DNA from: a virus
Strand: one strand, 5' to 3'
Length of the DNA stretch: 64,000 bases
IMG/VR virus record: IMGVR_UViG_3300033145_001087
Location: 47,431 to 111,430 of that record
Within the stretch, counting starts at the first letter, position 1. Each line of letters opens with the position of its first letter. The notes under the pieces were generated by a model. It searched no databases. It worked only from the letters and a program-made list of their open reading frames with translations, and was not told the DNA's origin. Below, one piece after another: positions 28 to 20,314 of the stretch. A program made the translations under genes and the position numbers.

Positions 28-3000
28 TTATGATGTATCCTCGCTACATGAACACCCATCACAACAAGTTCTAAAATACATACTTGGTTGGAATAGTGTC
101 CATCCTGAATATCCACAGGCATAATCTGCCCATAACCAAACACCAAAGTTAGTTTCAAACGATACACCGGCTTTAATATTTTCCCAAGACTCTGCTGATA
201 AGCTAATAGCTGTTGTTGAGTCACTAGAGTTACTCATTTTTAGTGTTACACAAGGCTCACTATTTTCAACCAAACTATACCAAGTAAACTCTTTACCTCC
301 ACGATTTTGTGCTGTAATATTTAAAAACGGTATAGAACTAGTTTGCCCCCAAGGTTCTACATTAGTACTGGTAGACGAACTAGGTGCAAAAACTAATGAA
401 TTGATATTTGTAGGTAAACTATAATCCCAATCAGAATAATAATAATTAACTTCTCCTGTATCATTACTGGTATAATCTGGTGTATGAACTATAATTTCAT
501 ATGTATCATTACCACCATAATAATCAAATCTAGGATTTTGTACTTCTAAAGTACCATTAACTAATGATTCAAATGTTATTGGAATCTCTACGAACCCATC
601 TGAATTATTTAAAAAAGTTTCAATTAAAGTAGTATTTAGATTTGCAATTGTAGCACTTTGATTATATGAAATATTAATATCTGAAATTTCTAATAACCCA
701 TATGTTGAATATAAATGTACAGGAATATAACAATAAGGAGATGTTGTACAACTAGATAAATAAGTAGTTAATGCATCTGAAATATTTACTTCTTCTTCTG
801 ATGAATAATTACCAGTATAATTCCATTCTCTATCTCCGGCACCAACTGTTCCAATTTCTAACCATGCGTCTTCTGGAACTCTAGTAAACGCCCAATGAAC
901 AGAATCTTCATAAATATTCGCATAAGCACAATCACCAGAAGAACAACTTGCACTCCACGGAGAAGTTATATATTTTGTATCATATAAATATGTATCTGAA
1001 ATTGTACTATATCCAGGAACGGCACCACTAACATATACTTTATTATAAGTTACTATATATAAATTACTATATCCTGAAATATCTTCATTTGTAAAAATCG
1101 AAGTTGTTTCATTCCACGCAGACATTAAATTATTTACATTATCTACAAATATTGTAAAATTACCATATTCATAAAAAGGACCTGTTGGGTAAGTTTGACC
1201 AACATAATACATTTCAACAATTTCTTTACCATTATTTGGGGCACCAGTTAAATTTATCATTTCATCAGCCATCCACAAATCAGCCCAACATTTGTGAGAA
1301 CTAGAACCTAATTTACAACCAATATTGCCTTCTATTTTAATATAATATTTATCAGCACCAACAAGGAAATCTTTATCAGTTTGAACCGACCAATATTTTG
1401 TTACTGCATCTGCTGGAGTTCCCCAACCTACTGCACTCCTTAATTTACCATTCGATTCAGATGTTCCATTATATCCCACATAATCTCCAGAATCAGACCA
1501 TAAAGAATAATTTACACTATTATCTTCAAAATCATCGTAAACAGTACCATTTTTTGGAACAGCAACATTAATATTAATAAGTTGTGCTGCATATGTTGAA
1601 AAATTATTATCAAATAATAACGAGTCATTACCATAAATTACAGTAGAAGGTAAATTTCTTGTAGATGAAGTTTCTAATACTCCCATATTTAACCATTCAC
1701 TTCCGTTATAACATTGAGGTCTTGATGAAAAGACAGATGACCCATAAGAGGATTTAATCCGTAATTCTATTAAAGTTTCATTATAATCCCAACAACTTTC
1801 TTGGTCACTCATAGTAATATTATAAGCATCTAAAGTTCCGTGTTTAACTTCCCAATATGTTGATGAAATTGAACTTGTTTTTTTCGTAAAATTTGAATAT
1901 CTATAATTAATATTAGAATTTTCTGTAGTAGTATAATTATTATCTTGTGTAGTACTAGTATCGTCTCTATAAGTAACATTATATCCTGTAATATTTAAAA
2001 ATCCTTCTATATTTGTTGCAGAATTAAATAATTCAAAATAACCAACTGTTACTATTTCTGCACCATTAAAAGTAGTATTTTTTGCAGAATCGTCATCGTT
2101 AAAAACAGTAATATCTTCTGATGATACGCCTAAAACAGGCCCGATATAATTACTTAAAGTATTATTAATATAAATACTTACATTTTGTGGATATGTTCCA
2201 TTTGTTTCGTATCCAATTAAATCAATTTTTAAATCTTCTATATCATCATATTCGTGAGAAGATATATAATAAGTATGATTAGCCGCACCTATATAAGTTA
2301 AATTAAAAAGAGAAGATGAATCATTAAATTTAGTAAGTCTAAAATAAGGGATAGTTATACTTAAAACATTATCATCCCCACTAGTATAACAAGAATAATT
2401 TGTTCCAAATACAGAATGATTTATATCAACACATACCGTATCTGCTGATGCATCAACGCTTATATTTAATACTGAACCAAGTTCAATAGTAGTTTCTGTA
2501 GATGCATTTAAACAAACACCTAAAGTTGTTCCACTACAACCAACTTCATTAACTTCTTCTTCACAAGTTACTCCTGATGAGCTACCAGCACTTGATAAAG
2601 GACAAACTATTGCCTCTCCACCAGCATTACCCGAACCATCACAATAACCTGATGTATCGGTTTCATATAAACAAGTATAAGAGGCATTAAAACTATCATA
2701 ATAAGGAGTATCTGCGTCACCATCACATTGAACAGTATCATTATAATTACTTGTGTTTTCAGTACACGTTAATACATTTTCTGTTGTTGCAACAGTAACA
2801 TTTTCTGCTACATTCGTATCAGTTCCCTGGTCTACCCATCCTGTTGCAGTACAACTTCCAGAATCGTAACCTGTATAATAATCAGACATTGTACATGCCC
2901 CTGCTATACATTCATACCAAGTTGCACAACTACAATCATCATTATCATCAGTCCCGCAATCACTATCTCCTGATGGGTCTTCACTTGTTCCGTCTCTGCA

Positions 3001-5094
3001 AACATCTCCTACATCTACATCTGCTATATTATCATTGGTATCTAAAGAACCAGCACCATCACAATATCCATCAGGACCTGTTTTAGTATGTAAATCACTA
3101 CAATCATCAAAACTTGAAGATTTACCTGTATTAATTGTTGAACAAGTTGTAGTATTCTCAGTAGTGTCTATTATATAATTATCTGGAACATTATAATTAG
3201 TTCCTTGGTCTACCCATCCTGTATCTATACAGTCTCCACTATCATATCCTGTATAATAATTATTAGCAAAACAAGCACTTAAAGTACAATCTCGTTGTGT
3301 TTCGCAACTACAAGAAATATCATTATTAAATCCGCAATCACTATTTCCTGAAGGGTCTTCACTTGCAGTAGTTCCACTGTCACAAACATCTCCTGTTGTA
3401 ACATGAGTATCAGCACCCCAAACTCCAGAGGCACATTCTTCATAGTGAGTAATATTTATACACATATCATAACCATTTGCTAATTCTCCATCGTGGTCAG
3501 GATTTACACAATCAGTTGCAGTTGGATGACAATATTTTGTTATAGTATTAAAACCGGCATCACAATTCCCTTCAAAACAATCTTCATCATCTGAACAAAC
3601 ACCATATTGTTCGAATTGAGTACCAAGATTCATATTACCACCAGTTAAATAATTAGTATATAAATCTGAGATTTCTGTAGCAGTTAAAGTTCTATTATAA
3701 ATAGTAATTTCATCTACAAACCCCTGTATACTATCTTCAGGGTCATCAGCACCAACAGCATGCCACGACATTGTACTTGCAAATGCCCCAAAAGTTTTAC
3801 TAGAATTACCTACATAAGTTCCATTATGGTATAAATGAATTACATTACCATCACGAACCCCAACTACATGATGCCAAATGTTCATAGCCAATACTTTATA
3901 AACTACTGCTGTATTACCATCCGCATCACTAACAGTAAAACCCATATTATTATTATATGAGTGAAAATTATACCAAGTACTATTGCCATTTGTTGCATAT
4001 AATATAGGTTCTCCATAATAATTTGTAGAATAATACCACAAAGAAATTGAATATTCAGTTCCTAGATAATCTTCTATATCTGGAAGGGAAATATAATCTG
4101 CCGTAGCACCATAATCTTTAAACTCATAGCACCCTCCAAAAGCACACGCTGTAGAATTACTATCTGCACCATGATTAGTTCCGTGAAAATTATTACTAGT
4201 AGAATCATTTACTGAAGTTAAATGAAGAGCTATTACGGTATTTTCACCATATACAGATTCGGGGGTATATCCTAATCCAGTAGATTCAATTTCATAAGGA
4301 ATAAAAGAAGTATCATTAACAACTGAAAAAATATTACTATCATTATAAGCACAATAAATATCTCCATTTCCGCTACCTGGATTTGTCCAAATAATATTAT
4401 CTCCAACACCATTAGACTGATTAATAGAAAATGCTAAAGAAGATGTTGGTTCATCAGTTATATTTCTAATATACTGATAACCAGTAGGAAACCAAATTGG
4501 GTCAAACATTCTAACATAATAAGTTTCATATTCGTTTTCAGGTCTGTATCTTACAATTAATTTATCAGATGCTATTTTTTGCTGATAAACTTTAGCCCAA
4601 TCATACCCATCTTGCCACTCTACTTTCATTCTATGCCCAAAAGATTCAGGACTAATTGCCTCCCTAGTCTCACCATCGTAAAGAATATCTCTATATTCAA
4701 AATGTACAATCTTGCCTTCACAATTTATACATTCAACTTTATGTTCAATAGGAATTAATTCAACATTTTCAACAGTTGAATCAAAAGTATAAGTGTCATA
4801 AACAGTTATATTATCTTTCCAAATAGAAGTTCTAACTATCGTAGTAATAGTATCTATGGTATTATAACTAACATCACGAGATTTCGCCCGCATTTTCACA
4901 ACACCATCCCAAAGTTGAACATACTCCGTACCACCAAGTACCCATTTGTTATCTTCAAAAACATAAAATTTGGTTCTAGTATTTTCTACTACAATTTTAA
5001 CATTGTCTTGCATTACAAAATAAATAGAAGACGTTAAAATTACTATAAGCATAATTGTACTTAACCAAATCGTTGTTTTTGCTTGTCTATCCAT
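28..5094 (-). CDS. 1688-aa membrane-anchored/secreted surface or receptor-binding glycoprotein with LamG-like domain and Cys-rich repeats
   Basis: N-terminal hydrophobic helix (IWLSTIMLIVILTSSIYFVM); LamG-like motifs (YSISLWY, WHHVVGVRDG, GFVDEITIYNRTLTATEI); duplicated Cys-rich segment; >40 N-x-S/T sequons by eye; N- and C-terminal domains shared with 17606..20314. Confidence 0.7.
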   Translation of the reverse strand: MDRQAKTTIWLSTIMLIVILTSSIYFVMQDNVKIVVENTRTKFYVFEDNKWVLGGTEYVQLWDGVVKMRAKSRDVSYNTIDTITTIVRTSIWKDNITVYDTYTFDSTVENVELIPIEHKVECINCEGKIVHFEYRDILYDGETREAISPESFGHRMKVEWQDGYDWAKVYQQKIASDKLIVRYRPENEYETYYVRMFDPIWFPTGYQYIRNITDEPTSSLAFSINQSNGVGDNIIWTNPGSGNGDIYCAYNDSNIFSVVNDTSFIPYEIESTGLGYTPESVYGENTVIALHLTSVNDSTSNNFHGTNHGADSNSTACAFGGCYEFKDYGATADYISLPDIEDYLGTEYSISLWYYSTNYYGEPILYATNGNSTWYNFHSYNNNMGFTVSDADGNTAVVYKVLAMNIWHHVVGVRDGNVIHLYHNGTYVGNSSKTFGAFASTMSWHAVGADDPEDSIQGFVDEITIYNRTLTATEISDLYTNYLTGGNMNLGTQFEQYGVCSDDEDCFEGNCDAGFNTITKYCHPTATDCVNPDHDGELANGYDMCINITHYEECASGVWGADTHVTTGDVCDSGTTASEDPSGNSDCGFNNDISCSCETQRDCTLSACFANNYYTGYDSGDCIDTGWVDQGTNYNVPDNYIIDTTENTTTCSTINTGKSSSFDDCSDLHTKTGPDGYCDGAGSLDTNDNIADVDVGDVCRDGTSEDPSGDSDCGTDDNDDCSCATWYECIAGACTMSDYYTGYDSGSCTATGWVDQGTDTNVAENVTVATTENVLTCTENTSNYNDTVQCDGDADTPYYDSFNASYTCLYETDTSGYCDGSGNAGGEAIVCPLSSAGSSSGVTCEEEVNEVGCSGTTLGVCLNASTETTIELGSVLNISVDASADTVCVDINHSVFGTNYSCYTSGDDNVLSITIPYFRLTKFNDSSSLFNLTYIGAANHTYYISSHEYDDIEDLKIDLIGYETNGTYPQNVSIYINNTLSNYIGPVLGVSSEDITVFNDDDSAKNTTFNGAEIVTVGYFELFNSATNIEGFLNITGYNVTYRDDTSTTQDNNYTTTENSNINYRYSNFTKKTSSISSTYWEVKHGTLDAYNITMSDQESCWDYNETLIELRIKSSYGSSVFSSRPQCYNGSEWLNMGVLETSSTRNLPSTVIYGNDSLLFDNNFSTYAAQLININVAVPKNGTVYDDFEDNSVNYSLWSDSGDYVGYNGTSESNGKLRSAVGWGTPADAVTKYWSVQTDKDFLVGADKYYIKIEGNIGCKLGSSSHKCWADLWMADEMINLTGAPNNGKEIVEMYYVGQTYPTGPFYEYGNFTIFVDNVNNLMSAWNETTSIFTNEDISGYSNLYIVTYNKVYVSGAVPGYSTISDTYLYDTKYITSPWSASCSSGDCAYANIYEDSVHWAFTRVPEDAWLEIGTVGAGDREWNYTGNYSSEEEVNISDALTTYLSSCTTSPYCYIPVHLYSTYGLLEISDINISYNQSATIANLNTTLIETFLNNSDGFVEIPITFESLVNGTLEVQNPRFDYYGGNDTYEIIVHTPDYTSNDTGEVNYYYSDWDYSLPTNINSLVFAPSSSTSTNVEPWGQTSSIPFLNITAQNRGGKEFTWYSLVENSEPCVTLKMSNSSDSTTAISLSAESWENIKAGVSFETNFGVWLWADYACGYSGWTLFQPSMYFRTCCDGCSCSEDTS

Positions 5095-5095
5095 A

Positions 5096-5464
5096 TTATT
5101 CCTCTATTATTCTAAACGAATATACATAACTTTTATTTCCTCTATCATTACTGTCTTTAAAAGTAAGAGACCCTGGAACTAAATAAAAAGTTCCATCATG
5201 GATTCCATCTACAAAAGCGTGAGCAGTAGCATCTTCGAATCCTTCTATATTACCTCTATTAGTAGATAAATTAGCAACAGTTGTTCCTGTAACTAATCCT
5301 TCTATTTCAAGTTCCCATTGTTGTGAACTCATACCAACTATACTTGTTTGTATAAGACTTTTACCTATAATCTCTTTTCTAGTTTTCTGTCTTTTAGTTG
5401 GTGTCATACTTGTTACAGTTAAAGTAATAGCATTAAATGTAATTGTTTCACTATAGCCCGTCAT
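5096..5464 (-). CDS. putative distal tail (Dit-like) protein
   Basis: 122 aa, beta-rich, immediately downstream of tape measure gene; call is positional. Confidence 0.55.
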   Translation of the reverse strand: MTGYSETITFNAITLTVTSMTPTKRQKTRKEIIGKSLIQTSIVGMSSQQWELEIEGLVTGTTVANLSTNRGNIEGFEDATAHAFVDGIHDGTFYLVPGSLTFKDSNDRGNKSYVYSFRIIEE

Positions 5465-5465
5465 A

Positions 5466-8400
5466 TTACATAGTCCTCATTTCTCTTTTAATTTCTTCTA
5501 CAAATTTATATGCGAATTCAGAAGGGTCACTAGACACTCCTGAAATATTAATATTTTGAATTGTAATTTCATTAGTTCCGCCAGTTGGGGCATCCCCTTT
5601 AAAACCCATTATAGTATCATCGGCACTGAAACTTGCAGCCGGTTGCCCCGGTCTCATTATAAAATCATTATACTTAGTAAAACCAGCTCCAACTTGTGCA
5701 AATGCAGAAGGACCCGCTGTCATCAAACCACCACCTCTAACTCCACCACCTGATATTTTACCAACAGCACTTGCAGCACTATTTGCCATATCACGTAGTT
5801 CGCTTAATGCTTTAACTTCTCCTTCTATAGTTTTAGTAAAATTATATCCTATTTCCTGTGCTTCTAAAAGTTTATCATTAAGTAATTCTATTTGTCCTTG
5901 TGTTCGTTCTACAGCACTAGTATATTCTTCTTGACTAATCCATTGATTTTTTAAAGCATCTATTACACTACCAGCACTTTCGTGTATTGTTATACTCTCT
6001 TCTTTATGGGCTTGTATTGCTTGTTTAACATCTTCTGTCATACTTCCATAATAAAGTTCATATGCGTCTTTAAGTAGAGTAACGCCAGATTCTTGTTTTG
6101 AAGTTTCCTCTGTAAATTTAGATGTTGAAAGTAACAAAGTTTGATATTTTCTTATAGATTCTGATACATTCATACTAAGTTCATTACCAGATTTTACAGT
6201 TTCTCTTATAAAAGTTTCTACAGTTTCTCTCCACGCTTCATAAGATGATTTTCCTGTTATAGTTTGGTCATTTACCTTTTTAAATGTTTCTAAAAAAGCT
6301 TTTAATTCTATATTTGACATAGAGATAGCTTTTTGAAGAAATTCTTGTGCTGAAACTCCTGTTCTTTCAAAAAATTCTTCTGCTTTAACAAACCTATCAA
6401 AACCAGTCATTAAATTTTCTATCCCTAATTGACCAACAAACCTAGGTGCTGAAAGTTCTGCAATTTCTTTATTCACATCTGAAAGTTTATCTTTATAATC
6501 AGAAAGTACTTTATTTTGTGTTGTTATTTGTTTTCTATAATCGGCTGTTGTTCTAGTAAGTTGACGTAAAAATTCATCTTTTTGTAAGATAGCTAAAGAT
6601 GCACTATACCATTGGTCAACTTCTTTTTTAGTAACATCTCCGGTCCTTGATGCAAGGTCTAAATATTCTGCATATTCAATAGATAATTTACTCAATGCAT
6701 AATTATAATCAGTTAATATAGCTTTATCATAAGCATTTTGGAAACGTTCAATTTCTTTAATTAAATCATTTAATATTTTATTAGTATCATTTAATTTAGA
6801 ATTCATAAGGTCTTGATATTTCATAACAAGAGGATAAGATAGTTTTAAAATTTCTAACCGTTCTGTATATTCTTCAAGAGTCATATCAGTTAATGCATAT
6901 GTTTCCTGTAAAATTTTTAGTTCTTCATTATAGTCATCTTGTCTATTTTGTAATTCATTTATTATAGTACTTTCCTTTTCTAATCCTAGTAGACTATTTG
7001 CCCTAATGGCTGATAATTCTTTTATTCTGGTTGATTGCTCGAAAGTTAATTTATTTAATTTTTCTTCCTCTATTTGTAATTTCTTATCTGCTGCAAGCAT
7101 TGCAGAGGTTCCATCTTCATGGGATTTATAGAAATTAACTCTTGCCTCTGCTATATCTTCTATAGCTTTAATTTCTTCAGCGGATGTTAATTCTACTATG
7201 CTAAGTTTTTTAAGTTCTACTTTTTTATCTATTAAAAATTGTTTTGCTGCATCATATCCTTCTATTTCTTCTAGATATCTAAATGATAATTCAATTTCTT
7301 CTTCTTTTGTTAAATCTTTATATGTCGCTAAAAAATCTTCTAAACTTGAAACTATATGCATTTTAGGTTGGTCAATAAATAATTCTTGAAACATACTTCT
7401 ATGACGGTCAGTTTCTACTCCTAATTCTCGTTTAATATCTTCTAAAAGTCGTGTGGCGGCAATTGCTTTATTTACATCTTGTAAATATTGTCCGAAACCA
7501 CTATTCGATGCTCTAAAATAATCTGTCGTGCTAGCTTTTAAATTCCCCCATAAAATAAGCCATTGATTTGCAGTAGTTTCCATAGCAATATCGAATTCAC
7601 GTTGAAGTGATGCAGCGTGTTTAAATTCGTCTGATGCTAAAAGAATATTTCTTTGTAAATCAATAAAATTACTAACTAATCCATTAACAGCAGATGCACC
7701 AACTCTACCAAAAATATCAGTTGAGATAGTTAATCGTTGTGTTTTATCAGTTATTTGTGTTAATCTATAAAGTAAATCTATAAAAACTTTATTAGCATCT
7801 TCACCAATACGGGTTTCAATAACAGATGAAGTAGTATCAAATACTCTAGCTATAGATTCTGTTTCTGTAGCCATCCTTGTAAAAGCAGTTCTCATCCTGG
7901 TTCCTGCTCTTTCGGCTCTCATTCCCATATCTATTAATGTTGCACTTATAGCGGCAGAAATTGGTAATATTATACCAAGTTGGTGAGCAGAAGTAGCCAT
8001 TTTTAACATAGAGGCTGCAATTTCTTTAGAATTTGCAGCAGTAGTATTAGACAATTCATTTATAACACTGCCCATATTTTCTGCTTGTGTTATCGGTAAA
8101 CCAAATGCTTTAGAAATTTTAGCTAAAGCTAAACCAGCTTCTTCGCTGGTTAAAACAGTTGCTGAACCCATCATAGCAACAACTTTTGTAAATTTAAGTA
8201 TATTTTCACTGCCTCTAATACCTAATTGTCCAGCTATACCACCAATTTTTGCTAATTCTTCTGCAGAAACAGGCATGATTCTTGATAAATTAATAAACGC
8301 TCCTTCTAAACGTTTAATTTCATCCCTGGTCATTTTTGTTCTTTTTCGAACAGTCGTCATTTCAGTTTCTAATTCAATAACTGGTTTAATTAAAAGCCTA

Positions 8401-8915
8401 TATGCACCATACACAGCTCCTAAAGCCATTGTCACATTAACTAATAACCATCTAAATCTTGTAAAACTTCCTAATAAAGAATTAAGCCTATTGCCAGAAG
8501 CTGCTGATGCAGCAGACATAGTTATCCATCTACCTTCAACTTTTTTTTGTGTTCGCGAAAATTTTTCCATAGTTCCACGAACTTCTTGGTATCTAGTTTG
8601 AGTACGTTTAATTTTATCGCCGTGTTTATCAATAATATTATTTGTTGTTTTCCAAGAAGTAAATTGTGTAGTCATTGATTGACCAAGTTTTTGCATTGAA
8701 GTATTATTTTTTTTAACAGCAGTTTCTAATTTTTTAAATTTAACAGTTGCACCATTAACAACTACGCCTTGTTTTTTAAATGTTGTATCTGATTTTTTAA
8801 CTGTAGTTTCTAATTTTTTTACACTGCCTTCTACAGATTTTAATCTTTGAACGATTTTTTTATCGTTCAAGATTTGCATTACAATATCTACATCTATTCT
8901 ATAATCACGAGCCAT
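5466..8915 (-). CDS. tail tape measure protein (TP901-like core)
   Basis: 1149 aa; TP901-type core (SAEELAKIGGIAGQLGI, INELSNTTAANSKEI, AERAGTRMRT, DIFGRVG); long coiled coils; follows the chaperone gene. Confidence 0.93.
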   Translation of the reverse strand: MARDYRIDVDIVMQILNDKKIVQRLKSVEGSVKKLETTVKKSDTTFKKQGVVVNGATVKFKKLETAVKKNNTSMQKLGQSMTTQFTSWKTTNNIIDKHGDKIKRTQTRYQEVRGTMEKFSRTQKKVEGRWITMSAASAASGNRLNSLLGSFTRFRWLLVNVTMALGAVYGAYRLLIKPVIELETEMTTVRKRTKMTRDEIKRLEGAFINLSRIMPVSAEELAKIGGIAGQLGIRGSENILKFTKVVAMMGSATVLTSEEAGLALAKISKAFGLPITQAENMGSVINELSNTTAANSKEIAASMLKMATSAHQLGIILPISAAISATLIDMGMRAERAGTRMRTAFTRMATETESIARVFDTTSSVIETRIGEDANKVFIDLLYRLTQITDKTQRLTISTDIFGRVGASAVNGLVSNFIDLQRNILLASDEFKHAASLQREFDIAMETTANQWLILWGNLKASTTDYFRASNSGFGQYLQDVNKAIAATRLLEDIKRELGVETDRHRSMFQELFIDQPKMHIVSSLEDFLATYKDLTKEEEIELSFRYLEEIEGYDAAKQFLIDKKVELKKLSIVELTSAEEIKAIEDIAEARVNFYKSHEDGTSAMLAADKKLQIEEEKLNKLTFEQSTRIKELSAIRANSLLGLEKESTIINELQNRQDDYNEELKILQETYALTDMTLEEYTERLEILKLSYPLVMKYQDLMNSKLNDTNKILNDLIKEIERFQNAYDKAILTDYNYALSKLSIEYAEYLDLASRTGDVTKKEVDQWYSASLAILQKDEFLRQLTRTTADYRKQITTQNKVLSDYKDKLSDVNKEIAELSAPRFVGQLGIENLMTGFDRFVKAEEFFERTGVSAQEFLQKAISMSNIELKAFLETFKKVNDQTITGKSSYEAWRETVETFIRETVKSGNELSMNVSESIRKYQTLLLSTSKFTEETSKQESGVTLLKDAYELYYGSMTEDVKQAIQAHKEESITIHESAGSVIDALKNQWISQEEYTSAVERTQGQIELLNDKLLEAQEIGYNFTKTIEGEVKALSELRDMANSAASAVGKISGGGVRGGGLMTAGPSAFAQVGAGFTKYNDFIMRPGQPAASFSADDTIMGFKGDAPTGGTNEITIQNINISGVSSDPSEFAYKFVEEIKREMRTM

Positions 8916-9538: not shown

Positions 9539-10645
9539 TTACGAATAATTACTATTAGAATCTACTATATAACATTTAGCATGTTCTACAGATAAATCTA
9601 ATGTTTGTGATACAATATCTTCTGGTGCTCCTGGTATATTTATACTGTTAAATGCACAACTACCAAGTACAATCCTAATAAAGTCATCTGATTCTGTTTT
9701 AACACCACCAACATCTCCAACTCTAACAAAATCCAAAGCAATTTGGTATTTAGAAAGTGTTGCTTGGTCTTCTGTTGCAGTATTGCTTCCAAGGAACCTT
9801 TGATACATCTCTCTAGTTGAAAAGTGTAGATTCAAATTTGCATCATAATCTCTTCCTTTTACTATTAGTTTTTTTAGTCCTCTTAGTGTCTGATGTGTAC
9901 TAGTTGTTCCAGAAATATACCATATAGCTTCTAAGTTATTGTTAATATTAAAATCGAATCCATTAACTTCTGCAATTTGGTCTGCTGCTAAAACGACAGT
10001 ATCTCCTACTACATTACCACTTGTTGCTGTTACAATACCTTGATAAAAAATGTATGGGTCTTTTGTTAAGTCAGTTACACTAGTTGCTGCGGCTGTTGAA
10101 ACAGTTACTCCTTGAGCAATAAAATCACAGTTAATTCTAAGCGGTTCATCTATTGTTCCAGATAATCCTAAAGTATTAACTCTACATCCATCATAAACCC
10201 TTTTTAAGTTATTTGTAGTAGACATTGCACCAGTATCTTCTTCATCAGCAAATTCCATACAAAAACTTGGAAAGTTATCTGCTTCTGGTGATGCTGCACT
10301 TCCTAATGTGTGAAAATATGCAAATCCTGTAGTAGCATTTCCAGTATGAAATTTAGGTCCTGAATCTATTGTTGCACTACTTGCAGTATCTTCCCCAAAC
10401 GCTTGTCTAAGAAATATTCCATCTTGTAAATAATATTCAAAGCTTCCTGAAATTTCGAATTTACCTGGTACTATATTGCTGTAATCTCTATTTCCTCCTA
10501 AAGTTCTTATTTTTATAAGATTATTTGTTTCTGTAGGATTAATAGATTGCACTAAACCAAACGGTTTATCTATTGTAGCAGAGGAACCATATAACGATTC
10601 ATTTGCCCAATATAAATTTTGTTTATATCCTGTTGCGACTCCCAT
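9539..10645 (-). CDS. major tail tube protein
   Basis: 368 aa; tube-like motifs (GKFEISGSFEY, RVYDGCRVNTLGLSG, FDFNINNNLE); upstream of chaperone; strong SD AGGAGGAG. Confidence 0.85.
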   Translation of the reverse strand: MGVATGYKQNLYWANESLYGSSATIDKPFGLVQSINPTETNNLIKIRTLGGNRDYSNIVPGKFEISGSFEYYLQDGIFLRQAFGEDTASSATIDSGPKFHTGNATTGFAYFHTLGSAASPEADNFPSFCMEFADEEDTGAMSTTNNLKRVYDGCRVNTLGLSGTIDEPLRINCDFIAQGVTVSTAAATSVTDLTKDPYIFYQGIVTATSGNVVGDTVVLAADQIAEVNGFDFNINNNLEAIWYISGTTSTHQTLRGLKKLIVKGRDYDANLNLHFSTREMYQRFLGSNTATEDQATLSKYQIALDFVRVGDVGGVKTESDDFIRIVLGSCAFNSINIPGAPEDIVSQTLDLSVEHAKCYIVDSNSNYS

Positions 10646-11884: not shown

Positions 11885-12539
11885 CCCCTAACATCTCTTT
11901 TAATATCTCTTTCCCAAAATCTATAAACTATATAATCCTGAGATTCTATAAATATTTTACTTGTTTAGCATCTCTAGGTTTGCCTTTTGGATAATGATGC
12001 CAATAATCCCCATCACACATAATTATTGTATTTATTTCAGGTAACCAAAAATCAGCGATTCCTAATTTATAAGGATGCTGTTTTATATATAAAAGGTCGT
12101 TAAAAAGTAATTCATTTTCGACCAACCGTTCTATTTTAGTATCTGCTACTAACATATTACCCTCTTTTAATTGTTTAATAGTAGATTCTCTGTTTTGTTC
12201 ACGTAATTGTTCAGCTTTTTCTTTACCATAAAGTTCTTTATATGTTTTGCCCTTCATTGGGTGTATATGATTTTTCCAATGATTCTTTAATCCTTTTGCT
12301 GATTTTTTAACAGACGTTGGGTCACGTTTTTTACCTAACCAAAACCCACCAGATTCTTTCATTCGTTCTTTAGTTTTCTTGCTAATAACCGTTCGTGTTT
12401 CTTCTGAATATTTATTACCATAATTTGGATTATTTTTACCAATATTATGTATGGTATTCCATTTACCTTGGCATTTTCTATTACAAAAAGACTTATTACT
12501 AGTTAATTTACTACAATATTTACAATTATTACTATCCAT
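11863..12539 (-). pseudogene. free-standing homing endonuclease (Zn finger + NUMOD3-like + Vsr/DUF559-like nuclease), frameshifted near the 3' end
   Basis: CKYC..FCNRKC; GKNNPNYG and HPMKGKT motifs; ADFWLP..CDGDYWH; stop at 11948-11946, but the family C-terminus ESQDYIVYRFWERDIKRDVRGCLKRIQ* continues in another frame to 11863. Confidence 0.8.
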
Positions 12540-12609
12540 TTTCTGCCCTCGGCGAGAACCATACACCCTACGGGAATATACTATTATCTATATAGGTATA
12601 GTAATACAA

Positions 12610-13678: not shown

Positions 13679-13695
13679 ATTTTTTCACCTCATAA

Positions 13696-16600: not shown

Positions 16601-17556
16601 TGTACTTCTTTTAATACCCACAACTCACTAAGTAGATTCTTTTCGTTTGCTAATTTAAGGATAAAAGAATCTGAAAGTATAGACCCTTCATATCCTAATC
16701 GTAAAATATATGAACTGGAGGTAATATTTTTACTATAAGTAGCTTTAATTGATAAATTACTAAGTAAATTCTTATCTAGTGTTTTAAGAACCCAAGAATC
16801 TGACAATATATTGTTTTCTACAGAAGGTTTCAATATATATAAATTACTAGTTACATTCTTTTCTATTGCTAATTTTTTAATATAAGAATTTGATAAAATG
16901 TTTTTACTATAAAAAGATAATATGAAAGACGAACTTTCTATATTCTTTTCTATTGCGGCTGCTGAGGTTATCTCTAAATCTGAAGTAATGTTTTTTTCCG
17001 TTGCTAGTTTTTTAATGTTAGAAACGGAACTAATGTTTTTACTATATGATTGTAAAATGCTATAATCAGATATTATATTTTTTTCTGTAAGTTTTTCTAT
17101 ATATGATATGTTATTTAAATTCTTTTCTATAGCAGATTTTGATATATAAGAATTTGATATTAAAGACCCTTCATATCCAAGTTTTTTAATAAATAAAGTT
17201 GATAATATATTTTGACTTGAACTTGCTAATATAGATAAATTAGAATTAATGTTTTTACTAGTTGGTTTAAGTATCCGAGAATCCGAAAGAAGATTCTTTT
17301 CATTTGCAAGTTTTAATATGTAAGAATCGCTTGTAATATCTTTACTATCTGTAGCAAAAATAGATAAATCACTAATTATATTTTTATCTATTGTTTTACT
17401 AATAAAAGAATCACTATTTAAATTAACACTAATAGCTAACTTTTTAATAAAAGAATCAGAGAGAAGATTTTTTTCAGTAGCAAGTTTCTTTATATAACTA
17501 GAAGAATTTAGGTTCTGTTCCCTAATTACATAAAATACTCCCTTTCCTATAACTAT
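13696..17556 (-). CDS. ~1286-aa Ser/Ile/Lys-rich tandem-repeat protein, probable fibre (ORF track truncates it at 16833)
   Basis: I translated 16831-17565: the frame is open with the same 15-16-aa repeat (xKNLLSDSYIxKL) and has no ATG/GTG/TTG above 16833; SD GAGGG precedes ATA at 17556. Confidence 0.8.
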   Translation of the reverse strand: MVIGKGVFYVIREQNLNSSSYIKKLATEKNLLSDSFIKKLAISVNLNSDSFISKTIDKNIISDLSIFATDSKDITSDSYILKLANEKNLLSDSRILKPTSKNINSNLSILASSSQNILSTLFIKKLGYEGSLISNSYISKSAIEKNLNNISYIEKLTEKNIISDYSILQSYSKNISSVSNIKKLATEKNITSDLEITSAAAIEKNIESSSFILSFYSKNILSNSYIKKLAIEKNVTSNLYILKPSVENNILSDSWVLKTLDKNLLSNLSIKATYSKNITSSSYILRLGYEGSILSDSFILKLANEKNLLSELWVLKEVQKNRVSDSFILGTVDKNLLSNTFIKKLATEKNVTSDSYILKDNIETNMLSTLWISKPTSKNLLSDSYILSSYVKNLVSDSLIKKLGYESSSLSNSYIKSLATENNLISDSFILKIIEKNLLSDSYIFGAVAKNILSILYIKKLATDKNILSNSYILKFANEKDIESDLWILKTQEKNLISDSYRLTSYIKSIISESIIKKLGYENSILSSLYIKKLSNTINITSNSWILKLESKNIVSDLTILASISKNISSDYYIKKLAYEQNISSLLVIVEQYTYSKNMLSDLQIGWPGQTKNLISSSYINQTYEQNILSVSYIKKLDVEKNILSESFIEKSTDKNLTSDSYILSTYSKNIISDSIIKKLGYENSLSSVSYIKRLGYLSNITSILWVNTIVDKNSLSDLQILKLTDKNLVSVSYITAPYDKNIISVSNILIVDNEKIIGSILHILKQTEKNLLSSSYVLASYSKNVLSDSYIKKLGYENSLVSNSYILKAENEKNLISESYILSTISKNIFSNLSIFCSLCNSTLSDSYIKVLGTEQTISSDSYILTPSVEQNILSNSTIITSYSQNIESYSFILATNSKNILSNLYIKKLGYEGSITSISYIKKLANEKNLLSDLWILKRESKNLISDSFILALNSKNIISQSYVLKLANEINILSDSWTLKSDIEKNILSDSYILKLEYETSITSISYIIKLSNESNILSDSWITKEEESNLSSNSYILSSISKNLSSNSYLVRLATKIEFTSESYILKLSNEKDILSSLFVLERTFKNIVSESYILGTVIENIESVLHIKTIDIKKNVISTSWLIQSISDSFVSDSYILQTYSKNIISNSLIELITSEVSIRSISQILSAYSKNLLSDTKVFRNYSKNITSDSLILSLGYIVPSTPEITDVAYAYNKPNINKTDKVLTQPDIKTQDMSITRPSIHPVTRTITKPIIDEKSGRITKPTVKSTEYTKRTYVTDSY

Positions 17557-17564
17557 TTTAATCC

Positions 17565-17600
17565 CTCATTGAATTGAGTCTCACCGTATTGTATTACGAT
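17565..17600 (-). promoter_or_regulatory. tandem AUNCAA-loop hairpins in the leader of the repeat-protein gene
   Basis: CGUA[AUACAA]UACG (17598-17585) and CUCA[AUUCAA]UGAG (17578-17565); the second pairs part of the SD. Confidence 0.7.
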
Positions 17601-17605
17601 TAAAT

Positions 17606-20314
17606 TTAACTTACTACAAAAGCATTAATATCAAAATAACCACCAGATGTTGGACTTGTATAATCTACCCAACAAGATACATCTACACAAGAATCTGATG
17701 TTAATGTTCCGTGAAGTGTTTGATTGCTTGTAGTTAAAGTTGTTGCATCTACTACTGTATAATCATCATCACATTTTAAAGCAATATTCGTGATTGTTTC
17801 ATTCATATTCATATAAATACTTGTCCCAGTACCTGTTCCATTATTACAAATTCTATAAATTGCTTGCGAACTACCAGCATTTTGGTCATCTGGTTCACAA
17901 TCAGTTTGTGTTGGCGTACACCTAAATGTTAAATAGTTTGTGGTTACATCTCCCCAAATTGAGCCAGTCCAAATAGTAAAATTAGTATCTGGGTCACCTA
18001 CCTCTGCATCTGTATTATTTGTAATATTAACAGAATCAAAAAATAAAGTAGTTCCAATACCATAATTTCCATACATTGAATAATAAACATATATTCTAAA
18101 AGTATCGTCAGTATATATTCCATCTGTAGCATTATATACCTCTCCATTTACCGAGTATGATATAACATCATTATCGTGAAGTTCAAAAGTTGCATTCCAA
18201 CCAATAGTCGATACATTAGTTAATATATCTGGATGTTCAGGAAGAAGATAATAACAATCAATATCTCCTTCACCGGCGGGATGCGTATCACCATCATAAT
18301 ATGAATGGATGAGAAAATGGGAACCTGTTGTATTAATTGCATATACACTAAAATTTATTTTCCAACCACCAGGATTAGCTCCACAATTACTACCATATCC
18401 TGTTGCGTGTCCATGAACATGTTCCATTTCAACTTTTGTCCCATATTGTAATGTGGTAAAATTTGTAAGTCTTAAAACATCATCATTAAAAGCGTTATAT
18501 GATTGTAGAAAAATATGGTCTTCGCATCCTGGTGCAACGGTGCAAGTTCCACTACCATTAATATATCCACCTTTTAAATTATAATCATCATAAGCATAAG
18601 CACTAAAATTGTCTGTTTGAACATAAGTTTCATTCCAGGCATGTGTATATAAATTAAATTCATCCTTCCAAACATCGGTTATTGTTTGTTCTACATCATT
18701 AACACCATAATATCTAACATCAGAACCTTTATAAGTTTCTTCTGTCTCATTACTCCAAGAATGCCACAAATAACGGTAAGGTCCCGCTTTTGAAAAAATA
18801 TCACTAGCATTATACATCATAGCTGATAAATTGGAAGCTGTCTTGTTTGAATTGTTTATGTCTAATAACACCGTGCCATTGGTTATATTTACGGTCACAT
18901 TAAAATAACCAGTCCCGCTTGTGGTTAAATTATAACTATCGTCCCAATAATCTGAATATTCTGGTTTTGGAGGTCCCTCGACTGTGGTTGTGGTAATATT
19001 TACTACGGAACACCTATCAAACGTTCCAGTTGCATCATCGCAAATATATCCATAAGCCGTTAATGTTCCTTCATCCGTTTCCAAAGTTTCATATGTACAT
19101 CTTATTTGAAATCCATCATCTGAATAGGGACCCTTACAAAGTGTATCCGTATCTCCACCATCACAAACATCATCTTCACCAACTACAGAAGTAATACCTG
19201 CTGTTCTACATATTATTAAGGCAATAAGTTCGACGTTATCTTCATGTCCAAATGCTGAATAAGTTATATTTAATCCTGCTGTTTGTGGGTCTGGAGAATC
19301 TTCTAAATCTCCTGTCCAGGTTGGCGTGGATGGCGGGTCAACAATATAATCAAATTCTAAATAAGCATTATTATCATTATTTAAACTAACAACTTTAAGG
19401 TCAAAAGTATCATTAACACCGCTTAGATTAGTAAGATATTCTATATAAAGGGTTGGTTTGTAAATTATTGGAAAACTCATAATATAGGTTCCATTAGTTA
19501 AATATACTTCAACGATTGTCGTATTTCCACTTTGATTATTTCGGGGATAAATTGTTATATCTTGGGTAGAATTAAGTTCTTCCTCAAAAGTAACTCTTAT
19601 ATATTCATTATGATAAATAGGCTCCGTCCAGATATTATCTAATTCTGAGGTCTCATTATACACGTTCGAAATAAAACTTTTATTTTCGTCTAAATGTATC
19701 GCATCTGAAATAAATATTGGGTCGAACAATCTAACATTATAAACTTCATAATCGGAATTAATATCATACTGAGCTTTAAGGATACCACTTTTATAAATCC
19801 ACGCCCATCTATAATCAGGATGTAATTCAACTTTCATATTCAATCCAAATTCTAAAGATATTTTATCAGAAAGTTTATATGTATCTCCTTCATACGTTAG
19901 GTCTCTAACTTCATATCGTAAAAAATATTCTGATGCATTAAATACTTCAATCATATGAGAAATAGGAAATACCTCTACATCATCGAGAGTTCCATCAAAA
20001 AGATATGTTTCTTTTATAACAGGTCCTCTTATATAAGGTGTTAATTTTGTAATGGTTATAGTTTTATTTTCTTCATCAATACTTGTATTTATTTCGATTC
20101 CAGATAGACGACGGTTCATTTTAGAATTCCCATCAAAAATAGAAACATATTCTCTACCCGCTACTACCCATCTATTATTATCATTTTTAACATAGAATGT
20201 AGCTTTATCTGTATCAATCTTAAGTTTAACATTATCCATAGAAATATAAATTATACCAGTAGCTAGTAAAAGAAGTATTAATGTTCCAATAATATAATTT
20301 TTAGTATCTGTCAT
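17606..20314 (-). CDS. 902-aa membrane-anchored/secreted glycoprotein, paralog of 28..5094
   Basis: N-terminal TM (YIIGTLILLLLATGIIYI); shared ~200-aa domain ending YNVRLFDP; >30 sequons by eye; shared C-terminal domain (EPxxQ...WxDY). Confidence 0.7.
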   Translation of the reverse strand: MTDTKNYIIGTLILLLLATGIIYISMDNVKLKIDTDKATFYVKNDNNRWVVAGREYVSIFDGNSKMNRRLSGIEINTSIDEENKTITITKLTPYIRGPVIKETYLFDGTLDDVEVFPISHMIEVFNASEYFLRYEVRDLTYEGDTYKLSDKISLEFGLNMKVELHPDYRWAWIYKSGILKAQYDINSDYEVYNVRLFDPIFISDAIHLDENKSFISNVYNETSELDNIWTEPIYHNEYIRVTFEEELNSTQDITIYPRNNQSGNTTIVEVYLTNGTYIMSFPIIYKPTLYIEYLTNLSGVNDTFDLKVVSLNNDNNAYLEFDYIVDPPSTPTWTGDLEDSPDPQTAGLNITYSAFGHEDNVELIALIICRTAGITSVVGEDDVCDGGDTDTLCKGPYSDDGFQIRCTYETLETDEGTLTAYGYICDDATGTFDRCSVVNITTTTVEGPPKPEYSDYWDDSYNLTTSGTGYFNVTVNITNGTVLLDINNSNKTASNLSAMMYNASDIFSKAGPYRYLWHSWSNETEETYKGSDVRYYGVNDVEQTITDVWKDEFNLYTHAWNETYVQTDNFSAYAYDDYNLKGGYINGSGTCTVAPGCEDHIFLQSYNAFNDDVLRLTNFTTLQYGTKVEMEHVHGHATGYGSNCGANPGGWKINFSVYAINTTGSHFLIHSYYDGDTHPAGEGDIDCYYLLPEHPDILTNVSTIGWNATFELHDNDVISYSVNGEVYNATDGIYTDDTFRIYVYYSMYGNYGIGTTLFFDSVNITNNTDAEVGDPDTNFTIWTGSIWGDVTTNYLTFRCTPTQTDCEPDDQNAGSSQAIYRICNNGTGTGTSIYMNMNETITNIALKCDDDYTVVDATTLTTSNQTLHGTLTSDSCVDVSCWVDYTSPTSGGYFDINAFVVS

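What the first reader, a model, noticed from the sequence alone, without database searches (positions are those of the whole stretch)
28..20314. Two modular, membrane-anchored, sequon-dense giant proteins inside a tailed-virus structural operon
Seen: the 1688-aa (28..5094) and 902-aa (17606..20314) proteins both start with a TM helix and share a ~200-aa domain (DNVK...FYV...WV..G.EYV...DG...YxVR(M/L)FDP). They also share a C-terminal domain (LxF...EPxxQ...WxDY) but have unrelated middles, and carry >40 and >30 N-x-S/T sequons plus many Cys. The larger gene sits right after the tape measure and Dit-like genes, where a tail-tip/receptor-binding protein is expected. Known: tailed virions assemble in the cytoplasm, whereas archaeal AglB N-glycosylation happens outside the membrane. 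Inference: either tail appendages are exported, glycosylated and added at egress, or the virus installs swappable adhesin/S-layer-like proteins on its host (superinfection exclusion, or altered attachment of a DPANN host to its own host).
Basis: partly seen in the sequence, partly recalled or inferred. Interest (0 to 1): 0.78.

Follow-up and report, generated by a model that had tools for sequence, protein, structure and literature searches.

The report
Exported sugar-coated giants in virus tail
A 111-kb tailed virus of archaea encodes, inside its tail genes, two giant proteins of a large undescribed family whose sequences say they are exported and sugar-coated outside the cell, although tailed viruses are thought to assemble entirely inside it.

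Summary
Both proteins start with a Sec-type hydrophobic signal. They share a ~180-aa N-domain (35% identity, E 2e-31) and, by profile only, a ~130-aa C-domain.

N-x-S/T sequons number 55 and 37, against 29 and 13 expected (z 6 and 7.6). No other ORF of the genome shows such an excess.

They belong to an unnamed family of at least 667 clusters at 50% identity:
- 93% of 120 members scored carry the N-terminal signal.
- Median sequon z is 6.6, and the excess is directional, without the bacterial -2 D/E.
- Cysteine counts are even in 68 of 90 complete members, which suggests disulfides.

The N-domain folds as a galactose-mutarotase-like beta-supersandwich, not a known baseplate fold.

The gene lies between the tape measure and a VgrG-like hub gene in at least 11 related viral contigs. 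In this virus its stop overlaps the hub start.

The virus has archaeal-type replication genes. Its RadA is closest to Woesearchaeota (DPANN), and it carries a ~13-kb glycan pathway.

Best reading (0.4): these are host-recognition proteins matured by export and host N-glycosylation, then joined to the tail outside the cytoplasm. Display on the infected cell surface without entering the virion is nearly as likely (0.3).

I found no published description.

The parts
28..5094 (-). P0001, 1688-aa giant protein of the new family. It lies after the tape measure gene and before the hub gene.
   Evidence: ORF. 55 sequons, z 6.0. Family member.
5026..5094 (-). P0001 residues 1-23: Sec-type signal with a K-containing n-region, a hydrophobic core and a small-residue c-region (T-S-S). 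It is either a cleavable signal peptide or a signal anchor.
   Evidence: Hydropathy. Family logo of 178 members aligned on the invariant Tyr. In the AF2 model the helix spans 9-20 and the first strand of the domain begins at residue 24.
4480..5025 (-). P0001 N-domain (about residues 24-205): galactose-mutarotase-like beta-supersandwich shared with P0002. It is poor in sequons.
   Evidence: BLASTP E 2e-31. AF2 pLDDT above 90 over residues 30-200. VIA Z 11-13. 1.33 sequons per 100 aa across the family.
3667..4104 (-). P0001 residues 331-476: Laminin_G_3 / concanavalin-A-like lectin domain.
   Evidence: PF13385 E 4e-20.
2605..3612 (-). P0001 residues ~495-830: Cys-rich region (32 Cys) containing two copies of a ~70-aa Cys-rich repeat.
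   Evidence: Translation. Cys counts per 100 aa.
40..444 (-). P0001 C-domain (residues 1551-1685): Ig-like beta-sandwich ending in a WxDY strand and a Cys-rich tail. It is shared with P0002.
   Evidence: Profile match E 5e-50. AF2 pLDDT 81.7. Generic beta-sandwich, best Z 6.8.
1..28 (-). First 9 codons of the 531-aa VgrG/gp27-like baseplate hub gene; the rest lies before the window, at genome 45863-47458. Its ATG overlaps the P0001 stop (TAATG).
   Evidence: Homologues hit PHROG tail protein and baseplate hub families. The profile hits a contractile-injection-system chain (7aef_q, three copies per entry) and a gp5/Vgr OB-fold chain (9gtr_q).
5096..5464 (-). 122-aa companion gene of unknown family. 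Its stop lies 1 nt before the P0001 ATG (TAAtATG).
   Evidence: No Pfam or PHROG hit. An ORF of 109-162 aa abuts the giant gene in 21 of 30 related loci.
5466..8915 (-). Tape measure protein, 1149 aa.
   Evidence: PF10145 E 6e-25. phrog_28 E 1e-50.
9539..10645 (-). Tail tube protein.
   Evidence: PF18906 E 6e-26. phrog_290.
17606..20314 (-). P0002, 902-aa second family member, between the head and tail modules.
   Evidence: ORF. 37 sequons, z 7.6.
19715..20314 (-). P0002 signal (residues 1-20) plus N-domain (residues ~21-200).
17633..17980 (-). P0002 C-domain (residues 779-894), the variant without the Cys-rich tail.
20366..21223 (-). 128-aa and 153-aa paralogous small genes directly upstream of P0002. 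The 128-aa gene is the companion at this position.
   Evidence: A homologue precedes the P0002-like gene in L019.
21236..24239 (-). 819-aa fusion of a GT2-like domain, a GT4/GT1 domain and a methyltransferase, followed by a 186-aa methyltransferase, next to P0002.
   Evidence: Pfam and PHROG hits. Homologues lie near the giant genes in L006, L015 and L033.
35418..47278 (+). Virus-encoded glycan synthesis and decoration cluster. It holds a sugar dehydrogenase-like gene, a sulfotransferase, two GT1/GT4, a UDP-GlcNAc 2-epimerase, an SDR epimerase/dehydratase, a CmcI methyltransferase, two GT2, a methyltransferase, a radical SAM enzyme, a pyruvyl transferase and a CgeB-like GT. All appear soluble. 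No flippase was seen, and there is no oligosaccharyltransferase.
   Evidence: Pfam. Hydropathy. No STT3/AglB in the viral genome.

Best explanation
P0001 and P0002 belong to a large, unnamed family of modular glycan-binding/adhesin-like proteins of archaeal tailed viruses.

Proposed mechanism:
1. Each protein is made with a Sec-type N-terminal signal and translocated across the host membrane (inferred from sequence).
2. Outside the cytoplasm it is N-glycosylated at many N-x-S/T sites by the host oligosaccharyltransferase AglB. The glycan is probably built or remodelled by the virus's own ~13-kb sugar pathway (inferred).
3. It is stabilised there by disulfides (inferred from cysteine parity).
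4. The sequon-poor N-domain, a beta-supersandwich, is the conserved base of the protein.
5. The variable middle (ConA-like lectin, beta-helix, Kelch, beta-propeller, BNR, MAM and similar modules) is the swappable recognition part.
6. The C-domain is a heavily glycosylated Ig-like cap.

The gene is a fixed, translationally coupled member of the tail-tip block: tape measure, small gene, giant, VgrG-like hub. I therefore commit to the reading that these are the viruses' host-recognition proteins. They mature outside the cytoplasm and join the hub or tail tip only at or after cell lysis. Either the signal is cut off, or the anchor leaves the membrane as in SAR endolysins.

Shown here: the family, its domains, the signal-like N-terminus, the sequon and cysteine statistics, and the synteny.
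Inferred: export, glycosylation, attachment to the virion and its timing.
For: Signal:
- 93% of 120 homologues have the N-terminal hydrophobic segment.
- The logo of 178 members shows K/R, then 11 hydrophobic residues, then small residues at -4 (88%), -3 (95%) and -2 (56%), directly before the first strand of the fold.
- The domain always begins at residues ~21-30.

Glycosylation:
- z 6.0 and 7.6 in the window, with no other ORF of the genome enriched.
- The family median z is 6.6, and 86% of members exceed z 3.
- Only N-x-S/T is enriched, with T preferred over S. The reversed motif, N-S/T, N-x-x-S/T, D-x-S/T and Q-x-S/T are not enriched.
- The virus carries a large glycan cluster and a GT-GT-methyltransferase fusion beside P0002.

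Disulfides: 68 of 90 complete members have an even Cys count (p 1.3e-6). The body count is mostly odd and the tail mostly holds 3 or 5 Cys.

Tail role:
- The order tube, chaperone, TMP, (small gene), giant, ~500-aa protein recurs in at least 11 of 30 viral loci.
- The ~500-aa protein hits PHROG tail and baseplate hub families and a gp5/Vgr chain.
- TAATG and TAAtATG junctions couple the genes in this virus.
- The middle is unalignable between related viruses whose tube, hub and N-domain are 47-62% identical.
- In several relatives I saw no other large variable gene in the tail block.

Host has the enzyme: the virus has RadA, PCNA-like, RFC-like and PolB genes. The related Woesearchaeota MAG encodes STT3/AglB.
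Against: - No tailed virus is known (to my knowledge) to export a virion protein, and tails normally assemble from the tip in the cytoplasm.
- The N-domain does not resemble any Dit, Tal or fibre-anchor structure in PDB or BFVD.
- At the same post-TMP position a relative (L032) carries the other N-domain type: 34% identical to P0001's and 61% to P0002's. A tightly fitted virion adaptor might not tolerate that.
- The second copy (P0002) lies outside the tail-tip block.
- This virus also has a 1045-aa repeat protein without a signal that could be a conventional fibre.
- Cleavage versus anchoring of the signal is undecided, because no SignalP or DeepTMHMM was available.
- No direct evidence of glycosylation or of presence in virions exists.
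Confidence: 0.4

Rival explanations
1. The proteins are exported but are not part of the virion. They are displayed on, or released from, the infected cell late in infection. Possible roles are masking or destroying the receptor so progeny are not lost on debris, superinfection exclusion, loosening the S-layer or glycocalyx for egress, or changing how a DPANN host cell sticks to its own host or to new target cells.
For: - The same export, glycosylation and disulfide signatures apply.
- The N-domain fold is typical of glycoside hydrolases and polysaccharide lyases, and of the periplasmic domain of YidC. It is not typical of tail proteins.
- The C-domain also occurs on three proteins that lack the N-domain but have their own N-terminal hydrophobic signal.
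- N-domain types are interchangeable at one position.
- P0002 sits outside the tail-tip block, next to glycosyltransferases.
- From my own knowledge, phage T5 encodes its receptor-blocking lipoprotein Llp next to its receptor-binding gene.
Against: - The gene is embedded between the tape measure and hub genes with overlapping stop and start, in many relatives. That is not where accessory genes usually sit.
- Several relatives would then have no evident receptor-binding protein.
- These are the largest genes of the genomes, which is costly for an accessory role.
Confidence: 0.3
2. The proteins are ordinary cytoplasmically assembled tail-tip or fibre proteins. The hydrophobic N-terminus is buried in the tail lumen or hub, like tape-measure hydrophobic segments, or it is used to enter the host membrane at infection. 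The sequons are modified in the cytoplasm by the virus's own glycosyltransferases.
For: - Position in the tail block and coupling to the hub gene.
- The virus encodes about ten glycosyltransferases and sugar-modifying enzymes, none with membrane segments.
- The GT-GT-methyltransferase fusion beside P0002 recalls chlorovirus A064R, which builds capsid N-glycans in the cytoplasm. That resemblance is from my own knowledge and is a lead only.
Against: - A K/R n-region, a hydrophobic core and small residues at -3/-1, conserved in about 93% of members, is the classic Sec signal and would be targeted by SRP.
- Enrichment of the canonical, directional N-x-S/T motif points to an oligosaccharyltransferase. 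The only cytoplasmic enzymes known to me that read it (GT41 NGTs) were not among the Pfam hits.
- The even-Cys bias indicates oxidative folding.
Confidence: 0.17
3. There is nothing special: the signal-like segment and the sequon counts are by-products of an AT-rich, Asn/Ser/Thr-rich composition in ordinary fibre proteins.
For: The genome has ~30% G+C. The proteins have 8% Asn and 18-21% Ser+Thr.
Against: - Shuffles that keep composition give 29 and 13 sequons against 55 and 37 observed.
- Control motifs are not enriched.
- The 1045-aa protein of the same composition shows no excess.
- The signals hold across 120 or more homologues.
Confidence: 0.03

Closest known systems
Modular receptor-binding / tail-fibre proteins and 'evolved' distal tail proteins of Caudoviricetes
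   Same: - Encoded in the tail-tip block next to the tape measure and hub genes.
- Conserved N-terminal domain with a variable, lectin-rich distal part (Laminin_G_3, beta-helix, Kelch, BNR).
- Rapid module exchange between related viruses.
   Different: - Carries a Sec-type signal, a family-wide N-x-S/T excess and an even-Cys bias.
- The N-domain is a galactose-mutarotase-like supersandwich, not a listed Dit, Tal or fibre-anchor fold.
- Both ends are conserved, not just the N-terminus.
- No hit in 50,697 GenBank phage records.
Archaeal N-glycosylated surface proteins (S-layer glycoproteins, adhesins, and tip adhesins such as the Tafi TafF2/TafC2 described in bioRxiv 10.64898/2026.09.13.751334)
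   Same: - N-terminal Sec signal, beta-sandwich, then beta-helix or lectin modules.
- Sequon-dense and probably disulfide-bonded.
- Would depend on host AglB.
   Different: - Encoded by a virus inside its tail gene block, not by the cell.
- No C-terminal membrane or sortase-type anchor.
- No sequence relation was found to any named cellular family.
Spike glycoproteins of enveloped archaeal viruses (such as pleolipovirus VP4), and SAR-type phage endolysins as a precedent for export followed by release (both from my own knowledge)
   Same: A virus-encoded protein is exported by the host Sec system. It is then modified or held at the membrane before acting.
   Different: - This virus is a tailed, non-enveloped type with HK97-like capsid, portal, tube and tape measure genes.
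- No muralytic domain.
- The hydrophobic core is strongly hydrophobic rather than Gly/Ala-rich.
Galactose-mutarotase-like beta-supersandwich domains (GH38 C-terminal domain, polysaccharide lyases, LacZ domain 5, YidC periplasmic P1 domain)
   Same: - Fold of the shared N-domain: Z 11-13, 160-185 residues aligned, rmsd about 3 A.
- YidC P1 likewise follows directly after an N-terminal membrane helix and lies outside the cytoplasm.
   Different: - Sequence identity is only 4-14%.
- No catalytic or sugar-binding residues could be assessed.
- A shared fold does not show a shared function.

Membership tests
Caudoviricetes receptor-binding / tail-fibre protein | Gene lies in the tail module next to the tape measure and baseplate hub genes | tested here: met
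   The order TMP, small gene, giant, hub holds in the window and in at least 11 of 30 related loci.
Caudoviricetes receptor-binding / tail-fibre protein | Conserved virion-proximal domain plus a variable, exchangeable distal binding domain | tested here: met
   The N-domain is conserved in 667 clusters. The middles are unrelated and carry diverse lectin, beta-helix or propeller Pfam domains.
Caudoviricetes receptor-binding / tail-fibre protein | Physically part of the virion | not testable with these tools
Caudoviricetes receptor-binding / tail-fibre protein | Cytoplasmic protein without an export signal | tested here: not met
   The Sec-like n/h/c N-terminus is conserved in about 93% of members.
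Distal tail protein (Dit) | Gene lies between the tape measure and the Tal/hub gene | tested here: met
Distal tail protein (Dit) | Dit fold (N-terminal ring-forming beta-sandwich, galectin-like domain) | tested here: inconclusive
   The best structural matches are galactose-mutarotase-like supersandwiches. No Dit appears in the PDB or BFVD lists, but absence from a list does not exclude it.
AglB-dependent archaeal N-glycoprotein | Export signal placing the protein outside the membrane | tested here: met
   Met by sequence logic only, from hydropathy and the family logo. SignalP and DeepTMHMM were not available.
AglB-dependent archaeal N-glycoprotein | N-x-S/T sequons above the compositional expectation | tested here: met
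   z 6.0 and 7.6 in the window; family median 6.6; the excess is motif-specific.
AglB-dependent archaeal N-glycoprotein | Host is an archaeon with AglB | tested here: inconclusive
   The virus has RadA, PCNA-like, RFC-like and PolB genes. The nearest named cellular RadA proteins are from Woesearchaeota. A Woesearchaeota MAG holding a related contig has STT3. The actual host is not identified, and the virus itself has no STT3.
AglB-dependent archaeal N-glycoprotein | Glycan actually attached to Asn | not testable with these tools
   Needs glycoproteomics.
Bacterial PglB substrate | Extended sequon D/E-x-N-x-S/T | tested here: not met
   D/E at position -2 occurs in 10.5% of 7295 sequons against an 11.9% background.
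Bacteroidota general O-glycosylation substrate | Enrichment of D-(S/T)-(A/I/L/V/M/T) | tested here: not met
   z 0.3 and -1.5.
Laminin_G_3 / concanavalin-A-like lectin (PF13385) | Match above the Pfam gathering score | tested here: met
   P0001 residues 331-476, 72.9 bits against a cut-off of 27.6. The domain is absent from P0002.
Galactose-mutarotase-like beta-supersandwich fold | Structural superposition over most of the domain | tested here: met
   Z 11-13, 160-185 residues aligned, on a model with pLDDT above 90 over residues 30-200. This shows fold only, not family membership by sequence.
Donor-strand pilin-like / PapD-like Ig fold (C-domain) | Structural match clearly above background | tested here: inconclusive
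   The best Z is 6.8, within the range common for unrelated beta-sandwiches.

The most novel reading that the evidence does not exclude
A whole lineage of archaeal (probably DPANN) tailed viruses may route its receptor-binding tail proteins through the host's secretory and N-glycosylation machinery. The glycan would be tailored by a virus-encoded pathway. The finished glycoproteins would be fitted to cytoplasmically built tails only outside the cell. That would be an assembly route not known for any head-tailed virus, and a prokaryotic parallel to the glycoprotein maturation of eukaryotic viruses.
Probability: 0.35. Interest if true: 0.92.

Novelty: new variant of a known kind. Interest (0 to 1): 0.8.

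Why it matters
Head-tailed viruses are the textbook case of complete assembly in the cytoplasm. A conserved tail-block gene family whose sequence says 'exported, N-glycosylated, disulfide-bonded' challenges that picture.

Either way the result is new:
- If the proteins are in the virion, part of the virion is finished outside the cell.
- If they are not, these viruses invest their largest genes in remodelling the surface of the infected cell, and their real receptor-binding protein is unknown.

The family is large (at least 667 clusters at 50% identity) and has no Pfam, PHROG or PDB relative for its two conserved domains. It gives a direct handle on host recognition in uncultured DPANN or other sediment archaea.

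Together with the virus-encoded glycan pathway, it offers a testable system for virus-directed N-glycosylation in archaea.

Tried and rejected
- The look-up of encoding contigs, so I could not read the context of the Thorarchaeota-labelled (P0114) and Oceanihabitans-labelled (P0055) homologues.
- Complex prediction, so no test of N-domain to hub binding was made.

Searches that found little or nothing:
The last scan gave one Woesearchaeota MAG contig.
- PHROGs gave nothing for P0001, P0002, the 122-aa protein or ten small companion ORFs.
- A PDB sequence profile of the N-domain gave no hit.
- BFVD gave no significant match for either domain.
- ESM Atlas gave no usable hit.
- The listing of cluster members added no names.
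- TerL is at best 29% identical to Bacteroides phage DAC proteins, which is uninformative for the host.
- The C-domain fold search gives only generic Ig/PapD-like matches (Z up to 6.8). I do not build on the pilin resemblance.

Ideas considered and rejected:
- Pairwise alignment of the C-termini is not significant, so the claim rests on profiles.
- An archaeal class III (pilin-type) signal: no conserved K/R-G/A cleavage motif before the hydrophobic core.
- The PglB extended sequon and the Bacteroidota O-glycosylation motif.
- A compositional artefact.
- A bacterial host, suggested by the class II CCA-adding enzyme and the Oceanihabitans label. It is outweighed by the RadA, PCNA-like, RFC-like and PolB genes and by RadA affinity to Woesearchaeota.

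Literature: three full-text searches found no description of such proteins (papers read).

Full report
**What the window is.** The window is the right-hand 64 kb of a 111,430-bp IMG/VR virus record with a 114-bp direct terminal repeat. G+C is about 30%.

The minus strand from 34345 down to 28 is a head-tail morphogenesis block:
- portal, 32942-34345
- weak HK97-type capsid match, 29815-30858
- tail tube, 9539-10645
- tape measure protein (TMP), 5466-8915

The plus strand from about 35.4 to 47.3 kb is a glycan synthesis and decoration cluster, followed by the large terminase. The cluster holds a UDP-GlcNAc 2-epimerase, an SDR epimerase/dehydratase, GT1, GT2 and GT4 enzymes, methyltransferases, a sulfotransferase, a pyruvyl transferase and a radical SAM enzyme.

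The left arm, outside the window, encodes:
- PolB with a LAGLIDADG insert
- anaerobic ribonucleotide reductase NrdD
- RadA/Rad51 with its N-terminal HhH domain (E 7e-75)
- a PCNA-like protein and an RFC-like clamp loader

This is an archaeal-type replication and recombination set.

**Checking the observation.** The two ORFs are as stated.

*N-domain.* BLASTP aligns residues 26-239 of the 1688-aa protein (P0001) with 23-232 of the 902-aa protein (P0002) at 35% identity, E 2e-31. Nothing else aligns significantly.

*C-domain.* The proposed C-terminal similarity is not significant pairwise. Two profile tests support it:
- jackhmmer from either tail, run against the tails of family members, converges on the same ~90 sequences and includes the other window protein.
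- A profile built from 30 tails, excluding both window proteins, scores the P0002 tail at 18.9 bits. The best of 2000 shuffles scores 14.9. The alignment is collinear from the L-x-F strand through EP..Q to W-x-D-Y.

The C-domain covers P0001 1551-1685 and P0002 779-894.

*Sequons.*
- P0001 has 55 against 28.8 +/- 4.4 in composition-preserving shuffles. P0002 has 37 against 13.0 +/- 3.2.
- None of the other ~100 ORFs of the genome exceeds z 2.7.
- A 1045-aa protein with the same Asn/Ser/Thr content has 18 against 20.8.
- Only N-x-S/T is enriched, and N-x-T more than N-x-S. The reversed motif, N-S/T, N-x-x-S/T, D-x-S/T, Q-x-S/T and the Bacteroidota O-glycosylation motif are not enriched.

*Hydrophobic N-terminus.* Only these two window ORFs have a strong N-terminal hydrophobic segment.

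**A large unnamed family.** A word-indexed search with the aligned N-domains found 128 proteins. Exhaustive HMMER found 667 clusters at 50% identity, 466 of them at E <= 1e-30.
- Lengths run from 228 to 4645 aa.
- The domain starts at residue ~21-30 in nearly all of the 150 listed hits; the few exceptions look like N-truncated or N-extended gene calls.
- Neither conserved domain has a Pfam, PHROG or PDB sequence relative.
- None of 50,697 GenBank phage records has the N-domain.
- The middles carry varied modules: Laminin_G_3, pectate-lyase-like beta-helix, Kelch, DNRLRE, MAM, BNR, pentraxin and others.

Across 120 members, 93% have the N-terminal hydrophobic segment. The rest look like N-truncated gene calls. 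The median sequon z is 6.6, and 86% exceed z 3.

D/E at position -2 of 7295 sequons is not enriched (10.5% against 11.9%). The motif is therefore of the archaeal/eukaryotic type, not the bacterial PglB type. Hydrophobic residues flank the Asn, as expected for exposed faces of beta-strands.

Sequon density per 100 aa is 1.33 in the N-domain, 4.61 in the middle and 5.79 in the C-domain. The N-domain is thus the least decorated part.

Among 90 complete members, 68 have an even number of cysteines (p 1.3e-6). The body count is usually odd, and the C-terminal tail usually holds 3 or 5. That parity compensation is what disulfide pairing predicts. The members are related to one another, so the p-value is optimistic.

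**Signal or anchor?** I aligned 178 members on the invariant Tyr. The N-terminus then reads as follows:
- K/R at positions -19 to -16
- eleven hydrophobic residues
- small residues at -4 (88%), -3 (95%) and -2 (56%)
- then [IV]-Y-[IV]-x-[LMF]

In the AlphaFold model the helix spans only residues 9-20. The Tyr-containing stretch is the first strand of the domain. This is the n/h/c layout of a cleavable Sec signal peptide. An uncleaved signal anchor remains possible. There is no pilin-type K-G/A motif. Either way the body of the protein would lie outside the membrane.

**Folds.**
- N-domain: the model has pLDDT above 90 over residues 30-200. It is a galactose-mutarotase-like beta-supersandwich, with Z 11-13 and 160-185 residues aligned. 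Matches include the GH38 C-terminal domain, polysaccharide lyases, LacZ domain 5 and the periplasmic P1 domain of YidC.
- No Dit, Tal or fibre-anchor structure appears in the PDB or BFVD lists.
- C-domain: the model (pLDDT 81.7) is an Ig/PapD-like sandwich with only generic matches, Z up to 6.8.

**Gene context.** In 30 related viral loci the giant gene recurs in the order tube, chaperone, TMP, giant, ~500-aa protein. At least 11 loci have the ~500-aa homologue directly downstream.
- The ~500-aa family includes the 531-aa gene that begins at window position 28. Its members hit PHROG 'tail protein' and 'baseplate hub' families.
- Its profile hits a chain present in three copies in a contractile-injection-system structure (7aef_q) and a gp5/Vgr OB-fold chain (9gtr_q). 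I read it as a VgrG/gp27-like hub.
- The P0001 stop overlaps the hub start (TAATG). The 122-aa gene's stop is 1 nt from the P0001 start.
- An ORF of 109-162 aa abuts the giant gene in 21 of 30 loci. These small ORFs fall into unrelated sequence clusters and match no family. 'Dit-like' is therefore unsupported.
- A second copy upstream of the tube genes, as with P0002, also recurs. Glycosyltransferase genes are often adjacent.

Between the window and relatives whose tube, hub and 122-aa proteins are 47-62% identical:
- the N-domain is about equally conserved
- the middle is unalignable
- the C-domain is about 23% identical
- one relative (L032) carries the P0002-type N-domain at the post-TMP position

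The C-domain also occurs on three proteins without the N-domain that have their own hydrophobic N-termini.

**Host.**
- The nearest RadA homologues (55-75% identity) are on virus-like contigs, some of which also carry giant genes.
- The first named cellular homologues (48-52% identity) are all 'Candidatus Woesearchaeota'.
- The only GTDB genome with a giant homologue is a Woesearchaeota MAG, on a 34.7-kb virus-like contig. That MAG encodes STT3/AglB.
- One homologue is labelled Thorarchaeota and one Oceanihabitans. I could not inspect those contigs.
- The virus itself has no STT3, and I saw no membrane-spanning flippase in its glycan cluster.

A DPANN host is the best guess, not a result.

**Interpretation.** Three independent sequence signatures say the proteins fold outside the cytoplasm and are N-glycosylated there: the Sec-type N-terminus, the directional N-x-S/T excess and the even-Cys bias. 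Each is specific to these two genes within the genome and general across the family. Synteny and coupling say the gene belongs to the tail tip. The modular, fast-changing lectin-rich middle is what a receptor-binding protein looks like.

- **Main reading (0.4).** These are host-recognition proteins that mature by export, host AglB glycosylation (with a virus-tailored glycan) and disulfide formation. They are fitted to the hub at or after lysis. Tail fibres of T4 join baseplates spontaneously in lysates, and SAR endolysins show that a phage protein can be exported and later leave the membrane. Both points are from my own knowledge.
- **Surface display without a virion role (0.3).** This would cover receptor masking, exclusion, egress or altered adhesion. 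The glycosidase-like N-domain fold and the interchangeability of N-domain types are the best arguments for it.
- **Cytoplasmic fibre glycosylated by viral enzymes (0.17).** This fits the gene position but not the signal, the canonical sequon or the cysteine parity.
- **Compositional artefact (0.03).** This is excluded by the controls.

**Novelty.** I found no description in three full-text searches and four papers read. Papers on Asgard viruses mention viral glycosyltransferase loci but not exported tail proteins.

I class the finding as a new variant of a known kind: a modular viral adhesin or receptor-binding protein with a maturation route that would be new for tailed viruses.

Earlier notes of this scan on the same genome agree on the glycan operon and on the archaeal-type replication genes. 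I re-tested both.

Noticed in passing
window 13696-16833 (-): A 1045-aa protein is built almost wholly of ~13-residue periodic repeats (such as ..KN-L-L-S-D-S-Y-I-L-K..). It has no signal and no sequon excess, and it lies in the lowest-GC stretch of the window (23-26%). It is likely a fibre or solenoid and may be this virus's conventional fibre. L032 has a homologue.
   Followed up: partly
window 16834-17605: A 772-bp stretch between the repeat gene and P0002 has no ORF of 50 aa or more.
   Followed up: no
window 21236-23695 (-): An 819-aa three-domain enzyme (GT2-like, GT4/GT1, SAM methyltransferase) lies next to P0002. The domain logic recalls chlorovirus A064R, which builds capsid N-glycans in the cytoplasm. 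That resemblance is from memory and was not tested.
   Followed up: no
window 11946-12566 (-): A Vsr/NUMOD3 homing-endonuclease-like gene is inserted within the tail module. Further NUMOD3, HNH and DUF559 endonucleases lie in the left arm.
   Followed up: no
genome 38263-41484 (L003:2263-5484 +): The family B DNA polymerase carries a LAGLIDADG domain at residues 883-947, probably an intein or homing endonuclease insert.
   Followed up: no
genome 17077-18393 (L001 +) and L001:15930-16098: The virus has a class II (bacterial/eukaryotic-type) CCA-adding enzyme with an HD domain, next to two tRNA genes (Pro-TGG, Trp-CCA). This is odd for a virus that otherwise has archaeal-type information genes.
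   Followed up: no
genome 28116-28880 (L002:10116-10880 +): A transglutaminase-like cysteine protease domain protein. It could be relevant to processing or to the ubiquitin-like system noted earlier in this scan.
   Followed up: no
P0206, P0207, P0208 (metagenome proteins): The C-domain also occurs on 1000-1600-aa proteins that lack the N-domain but have their own N-terminal hydrophobic signal. The C-domain is therefore an independent module of exported proteins.
   Followed up: partly
L008/L009 (IMG/VR relatives): In these relatives the hub-like gene precedes the giant gene instead of following it, and a 613-aa gene follows. The order within the tail-tip block is not absolutely fixed.
   Followed up: no
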